A program made the position numbers and the translations under genes. 64,000 nt of DNA from an uncultured bacterium. GTDB taxonomy: Bacteria; Planctomycetota; SZUA-567; JAKLDR01. A model generated the notes under the pieces. The model did not search any database. It saw only the letters and a list, made by a program, of their open reading frames with translations, and was not told the DNA's origin. The stretch lies in assembly GCA_965370045.1 (NCBI GenBank), contig CBDUSI010000004.1:4787-68786 (forward strand), written 5' to 3'. Of this stretch, positions 6,422 to 10,789 are shown one piece after another. Numbering within the stretch: position 1 is the stretch's first letter; every line of letters begins with the position of its first letter.

Positions 6422-7822
6422 ATGGGTGGTTTCTTCGCGGTAGCGTCCAAGGAAGATTGCGTCGTCGACCTCTTCTACGGAACCGATTACCACTCCCACC
6501 TGGGCACCGTGCGCGGGGGACTGGCGGTCCGGAACGGCGAAGGCATCACCCGCTTTATCCACGACATCACCAACGCGCAGTTCCGCGCAAAGTTCGAGGA
6601 CGACATCGGCAAGATGAACGGCGGGCGCGGTATCGGAGTCATAAGCGACTACGACGACCAGCCGCTGATCATCGGCTCGCATCTGGGGGCCTACGCGATC
6701 GTCACCGTGGGCGTCGTGCAGAACGCCGCGGAGTTGGCCAAGAAGGCCTTCAGCAAGCGCACCACCCATTTCTCGGAGATGAGCGGCGACGAGATCAACC
6801 CCACCGAACTGGTGGCCACGCTCATCAACGGGGAGGCCAGCTTCACCGAAGGCATCGCCGCCGCGCAGGACGCGGTCGAGGGCTCCTGCTCCATGCTGCT
6901 GTTGACCGACGAGGGGATCTACGCGGCGCGCGACCGCCTGGGGCGCACCCCGGTCATTTTGGGCAAGAAGAAGGGCTCCTGGGCGGCCACCATGGAGACC
7001 TGCGCGTTCCCCAACCTGGACTTCGAGGTCGACCGGGATCTGGGCCCCGGTGAGATCGTGCGCATCACCGAGGAGGGCATCGAAAGCGTAAGACCTCCCG
7101 GCGACCGCATGCAGATGTGCTCCTTCCTGTGGGTCTACTACGGATATCCGGCCTCCAGCTACGAGGGCATCAACGTGGAGGCGTCTCGCAACCGCTGCGG
7201 CGCGGCCCTGGCCCGGCGCGACGACGTGGATATCGACATGGTCGCGGGCATCCCCGACTCCGGCACCGGCCACGCCATCGGCTACGCCTCAGAGGCCGGC
7301 GTTCCCTACCGGCGGCCCTTCGTCAAATACACGCCTACCTGGCCGCGCTCCTTCATGCCCCAGGATCAGCGTATACGCGACCTCGTCGCCAAGATGAAGC
7401 TGATCCCCGTACGCGAGCTGGTCAAGGGCTCGCGGATGCTGTTCTGCGAGGACTCCATCGTCCGCGGAACGCAACTGCAAGACACCGTCCAGCGGCTTGT
7501 CGATGCCGGGGCGGAGGAAGTGCACATGCGCCCGGCCTGCCCGCCACTGTGCTACGGGTGCAAGTTCCTGAACTTCTCGCGCTCGCGCAGCATCATGGAC
7601 CTGGCCACCAGGAAGGGCGTCAAAATACTGGAAGGGCAGGCCGAGGAGATCGATCCGGCCTACGCCGACCCGGACAGCGACAAGCACAAGGCCATGGTCG
7701 GGGCCATCTCCGACCGGCTGAAGCTCACCACCCTGCGCTACCAGCGCCTGGACGATCTGGTCGAGGCCATTGGCCTGCCGAAAGAGAAGCTCTGCACCTA
7801 CTGCTGGGACGGCGCTGAGTAG
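6422..7822 (+). CDS. purF: Amidophosphoribosyltransferase-like protein lacking the N-terminal Cys
   Basis: Ntn-type N-domain (YAARDRLGRTP), GIPDSGTGHA, PRPP motif FCEDSIVRGT, Fe-S cysteines (QMCSF, CYGC, CTYCWDG), SD AAGGAGG. Starts MGGFF instead of MCG. Confidence 0.8.
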   Translation: MGGFFAVASKEDCVVDLFYGTDYHSHLGTVRGGLAVRNGEGITRFIHDITNAQFRAKFEDDIGKMNGGRGIGVISDYDDQPLIIGSHLGAYAIVTVGVVQNAAELAKKAFSKRTTHFSEMSGDEINPTELVATLINGEASFTEGIAAAQDAVEGSCSMLLLTDEGIYAARDRLGRTPVILGKKKGSWAATMETCAFPNLDFEVDRDLGPGEIVRITEEGIESVRPPGDRMQMCSFLWVYYGYPASSYEGINVEASRNRCGAALARRDDVDIDMVAGIPDSGTGHAIGYASEAGVPYRRPFVKYTPTWPRSFMPQDQRIRDLVAKMKLIPVRELVKGSRMLFCEDSIVRGTQLQDTVQRLVDAGAEEVHMRPACPPLCYGCKFLNFSRSRSIMDLATRKGVKILEGQAEEIDPAYADPDSDKHKAMVGAISDRLKLTTLRYQRLDDLVEAIGLPKEKLCTYCWDGAE

Positions 7823-8019
7823 GTTCTTTCACCCCTGAACTGATCGGGCGCCGGTCGCGTCCCCGTGGTTACGACGTTGTCGTCATTCGGCTCCCAAGTG
7901 CCGCGCACTAAGCGAAAAGTGCGAAAACCGAGGCATCCGAAAGGCGTTTGACAGCACGTTTGCGGGTCATTAGATTGGTCAGCCGGAGGGGGAGGCGGCA
8001 CGCAGCCGCCGGGAATCGC

Positions 8020-9405
8020 ATGCCTGACGACATTGACATCGGCAAAGTTATCCAAAGCGGGTCCCGCCAGATGGACCTGGGTGATCTGGCTAAGCTGGGT
8101 CACAAGAAGGTCCGGGTTATCGACGAGCGCCGCATCAACGAACTCATTTCCCAGGCCGTCCAGAACGCCATTGAGCGCGAGGGCGCCGACTCCGCCGGAC
8201 GCCTCCGCCGCGAGGCCGCCGAGAAGGCCAAAGCGGAGCTCGAAGCCCAGCTCGCCGAGCATCAGGCCCGTCTCGACGTGGAGTCGCTGGCCAGCAAGGA
8301 GGTCGAGAAGCTCCGCGTCGAGGTCGCCGGGCTGCAGGGCCAGCTGAAGGAAAGCACCGCCGTCATCGAGACGGAGAAGCAGCGCATAGCCGCGGACAGC
8401 CAGAAGGAATTCCAGCGCCTGCTCAAGAGCACCCAGCAGGGGCTGGAGGAGAAGAAGGGCGCCTACGAGAAGGCCCTGCGGGGCATGCTCGAGCGCGCCG
8501 ACCAGTCCATCCCCAAGGAGGAGCTTGCGGACCTGCCGGTGGTCGCCGTCGGCGAGGAGGTCCAGGCCGCACATATGCTGGAAGCCCTCAACCGCCGCGT
8601 CGAGAAGCTGGGCACCCTGCTGGGGACAGCCAAGGCGGAAGTCGCCGGCCGCGACCAGGACATTGCCATGGCCGCCGCCGAGCACCATCGCCAGAAGAAC
8701 GAGATCGAGCGCCTCAAGAAGGAAGGCGAGAATCTGCGCCTGGATCTCCGCGACAAGGAGCGCCAGTTCGACGGCCGCGAGCAGGACCTGGCCGTGGCCG
8801 CCGGCGAGCGGCGCAAGCAGAAGGAAGTCGTCGAGCGCCTCGGCAAGCAGCTCGACGAGATGCGCGACGAGCTGCGCGACAAGGAGCGCCAGTTCGACGC
8901 CCGCGAGCAGGACGTGACCATGGCCGCGCTGGAGCAGCGCCGGCTGCGCGACGAGACCAAGCACCTCCGCGAGGAGGCCGGCAAGGTCGCGGAGCTCTCC
9001 GGCGAAGTGCGGCGGATGACCAGCGAGCGCGAGCTGCTCATGGCGCGCATCGAGGAGTATCGTGATCGCGAGCGCACGGCCAGCGACCAGGTCACGGACA
9101 TGGCTGGCAAGCTGGCCGAGGTGCAGACTGGCGGCACGCAGAGCAGTGGCGAGCTGATGGAAGCCATCAGCGGCATGAAGGGCTCGCTCACCGAAGAGAT
9201 CGCCCGGCAGATATCCTGGGCGCTCTCCGCCCAGAAGACCGGCGCCACCGGGATCGACCCGGGCCTGCAGCTCGAGGCCCTCTTCAGCCAGGAGATCGAA
9301 ACCAACATCGAGTCGGTCAAGATCGAGGAGCGCACGGGCAAGACCCTTACCGATAAATTGGCCAAGCTCCGCGAGGCGCGGAACCAGGGACTGGGCCAGA
9401 GCTAG
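8020..9405 (+). CDS. Long coiled-coil protein with 42-aa internal repeats
   Basis: Rich in E/K/R/L/A heptads, with host-like codon usage. Start taken at ATG 8020 (MPDDIDIG) inside ORF 7948-9405. Confidence 0.8.
   Translation: MPDDIDIGKVIQSGSRQMDLGDLAKLGHKKVRVIDERRINELISQAVQNAIEREGADSAGRLRREAAEKAKAELEAQLAEHQARLDVESLASKEVEKLRVEVAGLQGQLKESTAVIETEKQRIAADSQKEFQRLLKSTQQGLEEKKGAYEKALRGMLERADQSIPKEELADLPVVAVGEEVQAAHMLEALNRRVEKLGTLLGTAKAEVAGRDQDIAMAAAEHHRQKNEIERLKKEGENLRLDLRDKERQFDGREQDLAVAAGERRKQKEVVERLGKQLDEMRDELRDKERQFDAREQDVTMAALEQRRLRDETKHLREEAGKVAELSGEVRRMTSERELLMARIEEYRDRERTASDQVTDMAGKLAEVQTGGTQSSGELMEAISGMKGSLTEEIARQISWALSAQKTGATGIDPGLQLEALFSQEIETNIESVKIEERTGKTLTDKLAKLREARNQGLGQS
8650..8980 (+). 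repeat. 126-nt (42-aa) tandem repeat, about 2.6 copies
   Basis: Units start at 8650, 8776 and 8902 (RDQDIAMAAAE, REQDLAVAAGE, REQDVTMAALE). The first two units end with LRDKERQFD. Confidence 0.85.
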
Positions 9406-10632
9406 ATGGCGCAGGGGAGGACACCGGTGGAAAAGGAAGACCGCCAGGACGTTCAGGAGCAGCCCCCGGAAGTCGAGGACGGGACCCCGGAGAGCAGCGA
9501 GGCGGACGCCGCGGAAGGCGCCGCTTCCTCCGAGCAAGCTGAGGAGGTTACTGCCGTGGAAGAGAAGGCCAAAGAGAAAGTCGCCGCTAAAGCCAAGGAT
9601 GCCCCCAGCAAGGCCTCCGCCGGGGGGGGCGAGGACGAGCTGGCCATGGGCCGGGGGTTGGACATCGGCACCTGCAACCTGGTCAGCGCCGCGCAGCGCA
9701 CCAGCGACGAGACCCTGACCTACCGCTCGCTGCGCAACGCCTTCCTCGACGTGGACATCAACGATTTCACCAAGAAGATGCTCACCAAGCTGGGCGTGCA
9801 GTACGTTATGCACAACCGGCGCATGTACGTGCTGGGCTCGCCGGCCTTCGAGCTGGCCAACATCTTCAACCGCGATACGCGGCGGCCGATGTCCTCCGGG
9901 CTAATCTCCCCCAACGAGGCCGACGCGCTGCCCATCATCCGCCTGCTGATCACCCAGGTGCTGGGCGCGCCGGCCCGCGAGAACGAGCTCTGCTTCTACT
10001 CCATCCCCGGCGAGCCGGTCGACTCGCAGATGAACGTGGTCTATCACCGCGACATCTTCGACGGGTTGCTGCGCAAGCTGGGCTTCCAGCCGCAGCCCAT
10101 GGCCGAGGGTCACGCGCTGGTCTTCGCGGAGCTGGCCGACGACGACTTCACCGGCATCGGCATCTCCTGCGGCGCGGGCATGTTCAACATCTGCGTGGCT
10201 TACAAGACCGTGCCCGCGGTGGTCTTCTCCACCAGCCGGGGCGGCGACTGGGTGGACAACAACGCGGCCATGGTCCTGGGCATGAAGGGCCCCCGGGTCA
10301 CGGCCATCAAGGAGAAGGGCATTGACCTCATGCATCCCAAGAACCGGGAGGAAGAGGCCATCGTCATCTACTACCGGAACCTGATCAACTACACGCTGGT
10401 CAACATCAAGCAGCGCTTCGAGTCCGCCGATGGCGTGCCCACCTTCCCGGACGCGGTGGACATCGTCTGCTCCGGCGGCACCAGCAAGCCCACGGGCTTC
10501 ATTGACCTCTTCACGGAGGAGTTCAAGCGCATCGAGTTCCCGCTGGAGGTCAAGAAGATCCGGCTGGCCGCGGAGCCCCTTAACGCGGTGGCCCAGGGCT
10601 GTCTGGTGGCGGCCATGAGCGGAATGGAGTAG
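9406..10632 (+). CDS. Actin-fold (ASKHA) ATPase, salactin/volactin-like
   Basis: Phosphate-1 GLDIGTCNLV, connect-1 MAEGHA, phosphate-2 GISCGAGMFNI, RGGDWVD, adenosine loop VCSGGTS, connect-2 EPLNAVAQG. The ATG directly abuts the upstream TAG. Alternative start at ATG 9646. Confidence 0.8.
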   Translation: MAQGRTPVEKEDRQDVQEQPPEVEDGTPESSEADAAEGAASSEQAEEVTAVEEKAKEKVAAKAKDAPSKASAGGGEDELAMGRGLDIGTCNLVSAAQRTSDETLTYRSLRNAFLDVDINDFTKKMLTKLGVQYVMHNRRMYVLGSPAFELANIFNRDTRRPMSSGLISPNEADALPIIRLLITQVLGAPARENELCFYSIPGEPVDSQMNVVYHRDIFDGLLRKLGFQPQPMAEGHALVFAELADDDFTGIGISCGAGMFNICVAYKTVPAVVFSTSRGGDWVDNNAAMVLGMKGPRVTAIKEKGIDLMHPKNREEEAIVIYYRNLINYTLVNIKQRFESADGVPTFPDAVDIVCSGGTSKPTGFIDLFTEEFKRIEFPLEVKKIRLAAEPLNAVAQGCLVAAMSGME

Positions 10633-10670
10633 CGCTCGCGGATCTTTCCGCTTTGGATTCAGGGACACAC

Positions 10671-10696
10671 CGGCGGCGGCCAGCGGGCCGCCGCCG
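10671..10696 (+). terminator. Probable terminator hairpin after the actin-like gene
   Basis: Perfect 11-bp stem CGGCGGCGGCC-AGCG-GGCCGCCGCCG followed by cgctttgct. Confidence 0.5.
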
Positions 10697-10789
10697 CGCT
10701 TTGCTCCCCGAATGTCTCTTGCGAAACGGCTCCGTTCGGGCTATCCTCCGGCTTCCAGGACAGAAGCGGTTTTCCGCGGAGAGCGAGGA

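What the first reader, a model, noticed from the sequence alone, without database searches (positions are those of the whole stretch)
8020..9405. Coiled-coil protein with 42-aa (six-heptad) repeats, coupled to the actin gene
Seen: 126-nt repeats start at 8650, 8776 and 8902. Non-repetitive N-terminal (MPDDIDIGKVI...) and C-terminal (ETNIESVKIEER...KLAKLRE) caps bracket a long rod. The TAG at 9403-9405 directly abuts the actin ATG, and a hairpin closes the two-gene unit. Inference: a two-component filament system (actin plus scaffold or adaptor, analogous to MamK/MamJ or intermediate-filament-like proteins) whose rod length changes by repeat number.
Basis: partly seen in the sequence, partly recalled or inferred. 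Interest (0 to 1): 0.7.

Follow-up and report, generated by a model that had tools for sequence, protein, structure and literature searches.

The report
Volactin-type actin with coiled-coil partner
An uncultured planctomycete encodes a coiled-coil protein with 42-residue repeats directly in front of a volactin-family actin gene; the same gene pair occurs in about 93% of related loci, so it is probably an unstudied bacterial filament-plus-adaptor system.

Summary
Gene 8020-9405 encodes a 461-aa helical rod protein. It has 42-aa (126-nt) units at 8650, 8776 and 8902, and conserved N- and C-terminal caps. Its TAG abuts the ATG of a 408-aa Volactin-family actin (PF25216, E 8e-88). A promoter-like site lies upstream and a strong hairpin downstream.

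The pairing is not chance. Of 91 non-redundant loci of this volactin clade, 85 have a cap-bearing coiled-coil gene immediately upstream. One locus has the two genes fused in frame, without the C-cap.

Only the caps are conserved. The rod between them ranges from 66 to 471 aa. In the window's own family the rod changes by whole 42-aa units (1 to 5).

AlphaFold2 orders the C-cap only when the actin is present (pLDDT about 40 alone, about 73 with actin).

Best reading: a dedicated volactin adaptor. The C-cap docks on the actin, the rod is a length-variable spacer, and the N-cap binds something unknown.

The partner has no Pfam family, and I found no paper on it. Binding, filament formation and cellular role are untested.

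Other agents in this scan reached the same reading of this module in other genomes.

The parts
7948..7976 (+). Promoter-like site TTGACA-17-TAGATT, 44 nt upstream of the ATG
   Evidence: 10 of 12 consensus matches; the only hit in 3.2 kb (shuffles give a mean of 0.2). Consensus match only, not shown to function.
8020..9405 (+). Gene for the 461-aa coiled-coil partner protein (P0001)
   Evidence: homologues of 326-626 aa in Planctomycetota metagenome-assembled genomes. No Pfam family. Only weak generic coiled-coil hits in NCBIfam, PADLOC and PHROGs.
8020..8184 (+). N-cap (residues 1-55; conserved core G27, V31, V33, I43: 'LAKLGHKKVRVIDERRINELISQAV')
   Evidence: invariant columns. Iterated HMM finds it in 102 ORFs of the fetched loci, almost all directly upstream of volactin genes. 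AlphaFold2 confidence is low with or without the actin.
8125..9132 (+). Helical rod: helices 36-86 and 92-163, Pro-containing break 164-182, helix 183-371
   Evidence: AlphaFold2 secondary structure in both models; pLDDT up to 96 in residues 190-250 of the protein-alone model.
8650..9027 (+). Three 126-nt / 42-aa (six-heptad) units at 8650, 8776 and 8902
   Evidence: The units show positional orthology (first, middle and last types). Copy number among orthologues changes by gain or loss of middle units.
9166..9402 (+). C-cap (residues 383-461; invariant E427, N429, L447, L450: 'LQLEALFSQEIETNIESVKIEERTGKTLTDKLAKLREAR'); proposed actin-docking element
   Evidence: conserved. It always lies at the extreme C-terminus (median 5 aa of tail). 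pLDDT of residues 421-440 rises from 37-42 without the actin to 73-75 with it, and a beta-strand appears at 436-440.
9403..9408 (+). TAG-ATG junction: stop of the partner gene abuts the start of the actin gene, in the same frame
   Evidence: 24 other loci also have a single in-frame stop between the two ORFs.
9406..10632 (+). Gene for the 408-aa volactin-family actin (P0002)
   Evidence: PF25216, E 7.7e-88; 998 or more homologues, 54-90% identical, in Planctomycetota; the modelled fold resembles MreB, MamK, BeeR and actin (TM 0.62-0.70 on the target).
9406..9645 (+). Acidic, disordered N-terminal extension of the actin (80 aa, net charge -13)
   Evidence: pLDDT below 50. Extensions of 35-180 aa are general in this clade. 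The true start within this stretch is not verified.
10638..10698 (+). Terminator-like hairpins closing the two-gene unit
   Evidence: -45.2 kcal/mol over 86 nt, z = -3.56. No U-tract after the long stem.

Best explanation
The two genes form one operon. It encodes a volactin-family actin-like ATPase, presumed to form filaments, and its dedicated adaptor.

The adaptor has three parts:
- a roughly 55-aa N-cap;
- an alpha-helical, presumably dimeric coiled-coil rod;
- a roughly 60-80-aa C-cap at the extreme C-terminus.

The proposed mechanism has three parts.
1. The C-cap (short helix, beta-strand, basic helix ending in LAKLR) docks on the actin domain.
2. The rod acts as a spacer. In this lineage its length is set in steps of six heptads (42 aa, about 6 nm) by gain or loss of repeat units.
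3. The N-cap connects the filament to a second, unknown target, or makes the adaptor self-associate so that it cross-links filaments.

Shown here: gene structure, the repeats, family membership of the actin, phylum-wide gene linkage, cap conservation, rod variability, and repeat-number variation.

Inferred: co-transcription, physical binding through the C-cap, dimeric coiled coil, filament formation, and the cellular role.
For: Linkage:
- 85 of 91 non-redundant clade-1 volactin loci have a cap-bearing gene directly upstream on the same strand.
- In a 401-genome sample of the phylum, 28 of 29 genomes with an N-cap match also have volactin, against 148 of 401 overall (Fisher p = 2.6e-12).
- Flanking genes are not conserved.

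Fusion: L098 encodes N-cap, coiled coil, a Pro-rich linker and the actin in one frame, and lacks the C-cap. This is expected if the C-cap's job is to hold the actin.

AlphaFold2:
- The adaptor alone has a C-cap with pLDDT 48/42/37/60 (residues 411-450) and no strand.
- The natural read-through fusion with the actin was folded with a partly paired alignment from 24 loci. There the same residues score 59/73/75/71 and gain helix 414-422 and strand 436-440.
- The N-cap does not improve with the actin.

Architecture: the caps have invariant residues. The rod ranges from 66 to 471 aa in the fetched loci. Family members in the protein library reach 1338 aa.

Repeats: orthologues have 1-5 units in exact 42-aa register.

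Operon signals: TAG-ATG junction, promoter-like site and terminal hairpin.

Published context: volactin forms dynamic filaments in Haloferax, and its binding factors are described as 'as-yet unknown' (PMC10869688).
Against: - No experiment exists for any bacterial volactin or for this partner.
- The tools give no model coordinates, so the claim that the C-cap docks on the actin rests only on confidence and secondary-structure changes. The two AlphaFold2 runs also differ in their alignments (paired rows and actin rows were present only in the fusion run).
- The fusion is a single contig from one metagenome-assembled genome.
- All loci come from uncultured genomes.
- Two loci (L027, L030) lack the upstream partner. 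Three Omnitrophota-labelled loci carry only a short C-cap gene downstream.
- A second volactin clade lacks the cap family altogether.
Confidence: 0.65

Rival explanations
1. ParMRC-like DNA-segregation module. The partner would be a ParR-like adaptor whose N-cap binds DNA (a centromere or the chromosome) and whose C-terminus captures the actin filament end.
For: The layout is the same as ParR: an N-terminal domain plus a C-terminal actin-binding element, and it fits the AlphaFold2 result for the C-cap. The N-cap has a basic stretch, KKVRVI, followed by a helix. The haloarchaeal actin salactin is reported to aid DNA partitioning (cited in PMC10869688).
Against: - No ribbon-helix-helix or helix-turn-helix family matches.
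- The N-cap has net charge -1.
- There are no iterons or direct repeats in the 197-nt upstream region.
- The locus is chromosomal, single-copy and flanked by housekeeping genes.
- Among plasmid records, the actin matches only haloarchaeal megaplasmids.
Confidence: 0.1
2. Tropomyosin-like side binder or ruler. The coiled coil would lie along the filament, each 42-aa unit contacting one actin subunit, to stabilise the filament or measure its length.
For: Periodic 42-aa units, about 6.2 nm of coiled coil each, are near the roughly 5-5.5 nm subunit repeat of actin-like strands (my own knowledge). Unit number varies among orthologues much as pseudo-repeat number varies among tropomyosin isoforms.
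Against: The repeats exist only in the window's own family. Most partners have short, non-repetitive rods (median 157 aa), and rod sequence is not conserved while the caps are. No tropomyosin family matches.
Confidence: 0.08
3. Membrane tether. The basic C-terminal helix would bind the membrane and the rest would hold the filament, like the CdpA-like membrane protein next to archaeal volactin.
For: Haloarchaeal volactin genes have an upstream four-TM CdpA-like/DUF7139 protein (PMC12126565). Haloferax volactin filaments touch the membrane by their tips (PMC10869688). The last 22 residues of the partner have charge +3.
Against: The terminal helix has a low hydrophobic moment (0.17-0.26) and negative mean hydrophobicity. 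No TM segment is evident in the sequence or the models. The C-cap becomes ordered in the presence of the actin in the model, without any membrane.
Confidence: 0.07
4. Independent intermediate-filament-like polymer (crescentin or FilP type) that is only co-expressed with the actin, or an assembly factor that does not stay bound.
For: It is a long coiled-coil rod with non-helical ends in a co-oriented two-gene unit.
Against: Rod length is not conserved, which is unlike intermediate-filament rods. There is a natural fusion to the actin. The C-cap orders only with the actin present. Foldseek finds no significant structural match (best E 0.24).
Confidence: 0.07

Closest known systems
Volactin (VolA, HVO_2015) of Haloferax volcanii with the adjacent CdpA-like membrane protein HVO_2016 (PMC10869688; PMC12126565)
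   Same: The actin is a member of the same Pfam family (PF25216) and is 40% identical to haloarchaeal homologues. In both domains of life a partner gene lies directly upstream on the same strand.
   Different: The archaeal partner is a four-TM DUF7139/CdpA-like membrane protein with an acidic tail. The planctomycete partner is a soluble coiled coil with two caps. The resemblance between the tails ('VDxAVxGLRGLxGG' against 'LxDKLAKLRxAxG') is not significant (hmmsearch E 0.04-0.4, hhalign probability 0.3%). The bacterial actin also has an acidic N-terminal extension.
MamK / MamJ, and Mad28 with the coiled-coil Mad20/23/25/26 proteins of magnetosome chains (PMC12748827)
   Same: An actin-like filament works with dedicated acidic or coiled-coil adaptors encoded nearby. 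The modelled actin fold resembles MamK (5ljv, TM 0.70).
   Different: There are no magnetosome genes in the window and the flanks are housekeeping genes. The partner matches no Mam or Mad family in Pfam.
ParM / ParR (plasmid R1 type II partition)
   Same: A two-gene actin-plus-adaptor unit in which a short C-terminal element of the adaptor is proposed to bind the actin.
   Different: The adaptor gene is upstream rather than downstream. There is no RHH domain and no centromere-like repeats. The adaptor has a long coiled-coil spacer. The locus is chromosomal and conserved across a phylum.
Tropomyosin
   Same: A coiled coil with a period of about 40 residues whose number of periods differs between forms.
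   Different: No sequence family match. The repeats are lineage-specific, and the conserved parts are the termini.

Membership tests
Volactin family of actin-like ATPases (Pfam PF25216) - downstream gene | Full-length match to the family profile above the curated cut-off | tested here: met
   295.5 bits against a cut-off of 35; profile positions 1-321 of 321; E 7.7e-88.
Volactin family of actin-like ATPases (Pfam PF25216) - downstream gene | Actin fold with nucleotide-binding motifs (GLDIGT; GIGISCGxGMFN; GGTS) | tested here: met
   The motifs are visible in the sequence and invariant in the alignment. In the AlphaFold2 model residues 543-870 have pLDDT 80-94 and resemble MreB, MamK and actin.
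Volactin family of actin-like ATPases (Pfam PF25216) - downstream gene | Dynamic filament formation in vivo and a role in cell shape | not testable with these tools
   Shown only for Haloferax VolA (PMC10869688).
CdpA-like / DUF7139 membrane partners of archaeal volactin (PF23600) - upstream gene | N-terminal four-TM DUF7139 domain | tested here: not met
   P0001 has no Pfam hit, and the sequence is hydrophilic and modelled as helical rod throughout. The haloarchaeal neighbours match PF23600 at E 1e-36 to 1e-48.
CdpA-like / DUF7139 membrane partners of archaeal volactin (PF23600) - upstream gene | Homologous cytoplasmic tail | tested here: inconclusive
   hmmsearch ranks two of the three archaeal neighbours first, but with E 0.04-0.4. 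hhalign gives probability 0.3% and E 0.23 over 28 columns.
ParR-type centromere-binding adaptors | Ribbon-helix-helix DNA-binding domain and cognate repeats (parC) next to the operon | tested here: not met
   No RHH family in Pfam or NCBIfam. No direct repeats in 7780-8060.
SMC / MukB / Rad50-type coiled-coil ATPases | Score above the family cut-off, and ATPase head domains | tested here: not met
   TIGR02168 scores 27 bits against a cut-off of 567. The hits cover only the rod.
Undescribed 'cap - rod - cap' partner family (defined here) | N-cap (G27, V31, V33, I43) and C-cap (E427, N429, L447, L450) at the two ends, with a helical rod between them, encoded directly upstream of a clade-1 volactin gene | tested here: met
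   In the library of 1.84 billion cluster representatives (one protein per 50%-identity cluster), 417 match the family profile at E <= 1e-10 and 95 at E <= 1e-30, mostly end to end.

The most novel reading that the evidence does not exclude
The cap-rod-cap protein would be the founding member of a family of volactin-binding adaptors. Its C-terminal docking element would be shared, in degenerate form, with the CdpA-like membrane partner of archaeal volactin. The actin-adaptor pair would then be a core cytoskeletal machine (division, budding or internal-membrane organisation) of FtsZ-less Planctomycetota. The rod would act as a molecular ruler, tuned in 6-nm steps by 42-aa repeat gain and loss.
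Probability: 0.15. Interest if true: 0.85.

Novelty: new variant of a known kind. Interest (0 to 1): 0.6.

Why it matters
Volactin was described only in 2024 in one haloarchaeon, and its binding partners are described there as unknown. Here a bacterial phylum that lacks FtsZ, and whose division machinery is an open question, carries volactin genes in 148 of 401 sampled genomes. In the main clade the gene comes with a dedicated, uncharacterised partner.

The conserved caps and the free-length rod give concrete constructs to test: C-cap peptide binding, N-cap target, and rod-length swaps. The natural series of 1 to 5 repeats is a ready-made set of rod-length variants. If binding is confirmed, this would be the first volactin-binding factor and a new adaptor architecture for prokaryotic actins.

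Tried and rejected
- **Family searches for the partner.** Pfam, NCBIfam, PADLOC and PHROGs gave only sub-threshold generic coiled-coil hits (SMC, JetC, tape measure). All were rejected as compositional.
- **Sequence search of the actin against solved structures.** Nothing relevant.
- **Foldseek of the partner model against the PDB.** No hit below E 0.2.
- **Unpaired alignment for AlphaFold2.** I aligned the read-through fusion with separate partner and actin homologues. MAFFT placed the partner rows on the actin part (A2, A3), so these were discarded. The fix was to add 24 in-frame read-through pairs as bridging rows (A5, A6).
- **Homology between the planctomycete C-cap and the tail of the haloarchaeal upstream protein.** Not significant; kept only as a lead.
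- **parC-like iterons upstream.** None.
- **C-terminal helix as a membrane-targeting amphipathic helix.** Low hydrophobic moment.
- **Long family members (up to 1338 aa) as possible actin fusions.** None has a Volactin domain; they are simply longer rods.
- **Literature.** No paper in the library holds both 'Planctomycetota' and 'volactin'.

Full report
**1. What is in the sequence**

The + strand ORF 8020-9405 encodes a 461-aa protein, P0001. ATG 8020 is the real start. All aligned homologues begin at the equivalent M-P/A-x-D-x-D-I. The upstream TTG at 7948, which would extend the ORF, is the -35 hexamer of the only promoter-like site in the region, TTGACA-17-TAGATT at 7948-7976.

Tandem Repeats Finder reports a 126-nt period at 8642-8927. 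Units 1 and 2 share 73% of nucleotides and 55% of residues. Unit 3 is diverged (56% nt, 24-29% aa). Self-identity at lag 42 is 37 of 84 residues, against at most 21 in 500 shuffles.

The TAG at 9403-9405 abuts the ATG of a 408-aa protein, P0002, which is in the same reading frame. The 86 nt after its stop fold at -45.2 kcal/mol (z = -3.56). They contain a small hairpin at 10638-10651 and a 12-bp G+C stem at about 10670-10698.

**2. The downstream gene is a volactin-family actin**

- Residues 81-403 of P0002 match Pfam PF25216 (Volactin) end to end: 295 bits, cut-off 35, E 7.7e-88.
- The first 80 residues are acidic (net charge -13) and are modelled as disordered.
- Homologues 54-90% identical are abundant in Planctomycetota metagenome-assembled genomes. 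NCBI names some of them 'disk-shape morphogenesis protein volactin'.
- The modelled fold resembles MreB, MamK, BeeR and actin.
- In a 401-genome sample of the phylum, 148 genomes have a volactin gene.
- The window's own genome has one volactin copy and a genuine MreB. No FtsZ or tubulin was detected in this 88%-complete assembly.

**3. The upstream protein is an undescribed cap-rod-cap family**

P0001 has no Pfam family. NCBIfam, PADLOC and PHROGs give only far-sub-threshold coiled-coil hits.

Its close homologues (326-626 aa) share a conserved N-terminal and a conserved C-terminal segment. They differ by whole 42-aa blocks. A wider alignment shows the parts that are invariant across families:
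- N-cap: G27, V31, V33, I43 ('LAKxGxxxVxVLDxxxIxxLIxEAV').
- C-cap: E427, N429, L447, L450 ('LxALFSxxxE(T/N)NxxxVxVxxxKxxxxxxxLAKLR').

A profile of this alignment finds 417 cluster representatives (50%-identity clusters) at E <= 1e-10 among 1.84 billion representative proteins. Most match end to end, with lengths of about 150-1338 aa. The longest members are longer rods, not actin fusions.

**4. Linkage to the actin**

I fetched 40 volactin neighbourhoods from about 35 families of the phylum. I fetched 80 more by a pattern scan of the species-representative genomes. Three more came from look-ups of partner homologues.

I built cap HMMs from the window's family and iterated them on the six-frame ORFs of these loci. 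Among 91 non-redundant loci of the main volactin clade with at least 1500 nt of upstream sequence:
- 85 have a cap-bearing ORF directly upstream on the same strand. Of these, 70 have one actin gene and 15 have two actin genes in tandem.
- One locus (L098) is an in-frame fusion.
- Three loci labelled Omnitrophota carry a short C-cap-only ORF after two actin genes.
- Two loci (L027, L030) have no partner nearby, and their actins carry long acidic or Glu/Arg/Lys-rich (ER/K-type) N-terminal extensions.

Flanking genes differ between loci. In the 401-genome sample, even the narrow family profile hit 29 genomes, and 28 of them have volactin (Fisher p = 2.6e-12).

A second, lower-scoring volactin clade has no cap partner. 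It has a different conserved upstream protein of about 190 aa.

**5. What varies and what does not**

In 85 distinct partners the distance between the caps ranges from 66 to 471 aa (median 157). The C-cap always lies at the extreme C-terminus, with a median tail of 5 aa.

In the window's own family the rod carries 1 to 5 units in exact 42-aa register. The units show positional orthology, with a first, a middle and a last type:
- Proteins with two units lack the middle type.
- The window has one middle unit.
- P0003 and P0006 have two middle units, which are 71% and 52% identical to each other.
- The P0009 lineage expanded independently.

Each step adds six heptads, about 6 nm of coiled coil by standard geometry, and keeps the heptad phase. 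Across the phylum the rod is better described as a free-length spacer.

**6. Evidence on mechanism**

(a) The L098 fusion keeps the N-cap and the coiled coil, but replaces the C-cap with a proline-rich linker that runs into the actin. This is what one expects if the C-cap's function is to hold the actin.

(b) In the window the two genes are in frame, so reading TAG as a residue gives an 870-aa chain. The actin's own 80-aa disordered extension serves as the linker.
- I built a partly paired alignment from 24 other loci with a single in-frame stop between the genes, plus unpaired homologues of each protein. I folded the fusion with it.
- As a control I folded P0001 alone with the same partner rows.
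- Alone, residues 411-450 have pLDDT 48/42/37/60 and no strand.
- With the actin, the same residues score 59/73/75/71 and gain helix 414-422 and strand 436-440.
- The N-cap does not improve (53-70 alone, 47-60 fused).

This points to the C-cap as the actin-docking element. The evidence is indirect. The tools give no coordinates, the two runs differ in alignment content, and the link is in cis.

(c) The terminal helix is basic (+3 over 22 residues) but has a low hydrophobic moment. That argues against a membrane-targeting helix.

(d) There are no direct repeats upstream and no DNA-binding family match, which argues against a ParR-like role.

**7. Comparison with what is known**

Volactin (VolA, HVO_2015) forms dynamic filaments that touch the membrane by their tips. 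It affects the rod-to-disk transition in Haloferax volcanii, and its binding factors are called 'as-yet unknown' (PMC10869688).

The gene next to it, HVO_2016, is a CdpA-like four-TM protein. The authors of the CdpA paper noted this adjacency and also pulled down volactin with CdpA (PMC12126565).

I found the same arrangement on three haloarchaeal megaplasmids. There the actin is 40% identical to P0002, and a DUF7139 membrane protein lies directly upstream. Its tail has a 'VDxAVxGLRGLxGG' motif that looks like the planctomycete 'LxDKLAKLRxAxG'. The similarity is not significant, so I keep it only as a lead.

Functionally the nearest analogues are MamK/MamJ, Mad28 with the coiled-coil Mad proteins (PMC12748827), and ParM/ParR. 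The partner belongs to none of these families.

No paper in the library combines Planctomycetota and volactin. A search for a planctomycete actin homologue with a coiled-coil partner found nothing on this pair.

**8. Earlier notes of this scan**

After forming my reading I looked at earlier notes. Several agents reached the same conclusion for this module in other genomes, including a docking C-terminal helix and partner-actin fusions. These are unchecked AI notes, not independent evidence. They agree with the results here and pointed me to the CdpA-like neighbour, which I then verified in the paper and in three loci.

**9. Verdict**

This is a real two-gene unit. The actin is a new bacterial member of a named family. 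The partner is a large, undescribed family whose two caps and variable rod suggest an adaptor or spacer.

The window's particular feature, 42-aa repeats whose number varies among orthologues, is genuine. Binding, polymerisation and cellular role remain to be shown.

I rate it as a new variant of a known kind (actin plus adaptor), with interest 0.6.

Noticed in passing
L035-L043 (loci of a second volactin clade): A lower-scoring volactin clade (250-290 bits against my planctomycete actin HMM) never has the cap-rod-cap partner. Instead it has its own conserved upstream protein of about 190-200 aa ('MWIVKN..RG.L.F.G...AFEEGYL...LS.AEIRARLAFL...DLLS'), which may be a second, different actin-partner pair.
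   Followed up: partly
L055, L056, L070, L076, L082, L094, L101, L102, L105-L107, L109, L110, L118-L120, L124: Many loci have the order partner - actin A - actin B. The second actin carries a 135-180-aa N-terminal extension and has no partner gene of its own.
   Followed up: partly
L098:2891-4993: A natural in-frame fusion of N-cap, coiled coil, a proline-rich linker and the volactin domain, lacking the C-cap. The same metagenome-assembled genome also has an unfused partner-actin-actin locus (L119).
   Followed up: partly
L027:1466-4267 and L030:2832-4238: In two lineages the actin has no upstream partner. It carries a long N-terminal extension instead: 590 aa, acidic and then Glu/Arg/Lys-rich (ER/K-type), in L027, and 127 aa, acidic, in L030. 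In one search, genomes of the same families (f57, f33) had their N-cap matches on a different contig from their volactin gene.
   Followed up: partly
L114, L117, L123 (records labelled Omnitrophota): The order is actin - actin - short ORF that has only the C-cap, on the same strand, with no N-cap. I did not test this.
   Followed up: no
L127:2800-3699, L128:2926-3834, L129:2980-3903: Haloarchaeal megaplasmid volactin genes each have an upstream four-TM DUF7139 (CdpA-like) protein. Its acidic tail ends in a conserved 'GLLxRxRSLF'.
   Followed up: partly
own genome, contig C14:26926-27909: The genome has a canonical MreB (469 bits) in addition to volactin. No FtsZ or tubulin match was found in the 88%-complete assembly.
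   Followed up: partly
P0205 (1338 aa), P0186 (942 aa): Giant members of the partner family, with rods several times longer than in the window and no other Pfam domain.
   Followed up: partly
window 7798-9813 (- strand): A 671-aa open frame lies antisense to the partner gene. It is Gly/Ala/Leu-rich, as expected for a shadow frame in G+C-rich DNA, and I did not treat it as a gene.
   Followed up: no
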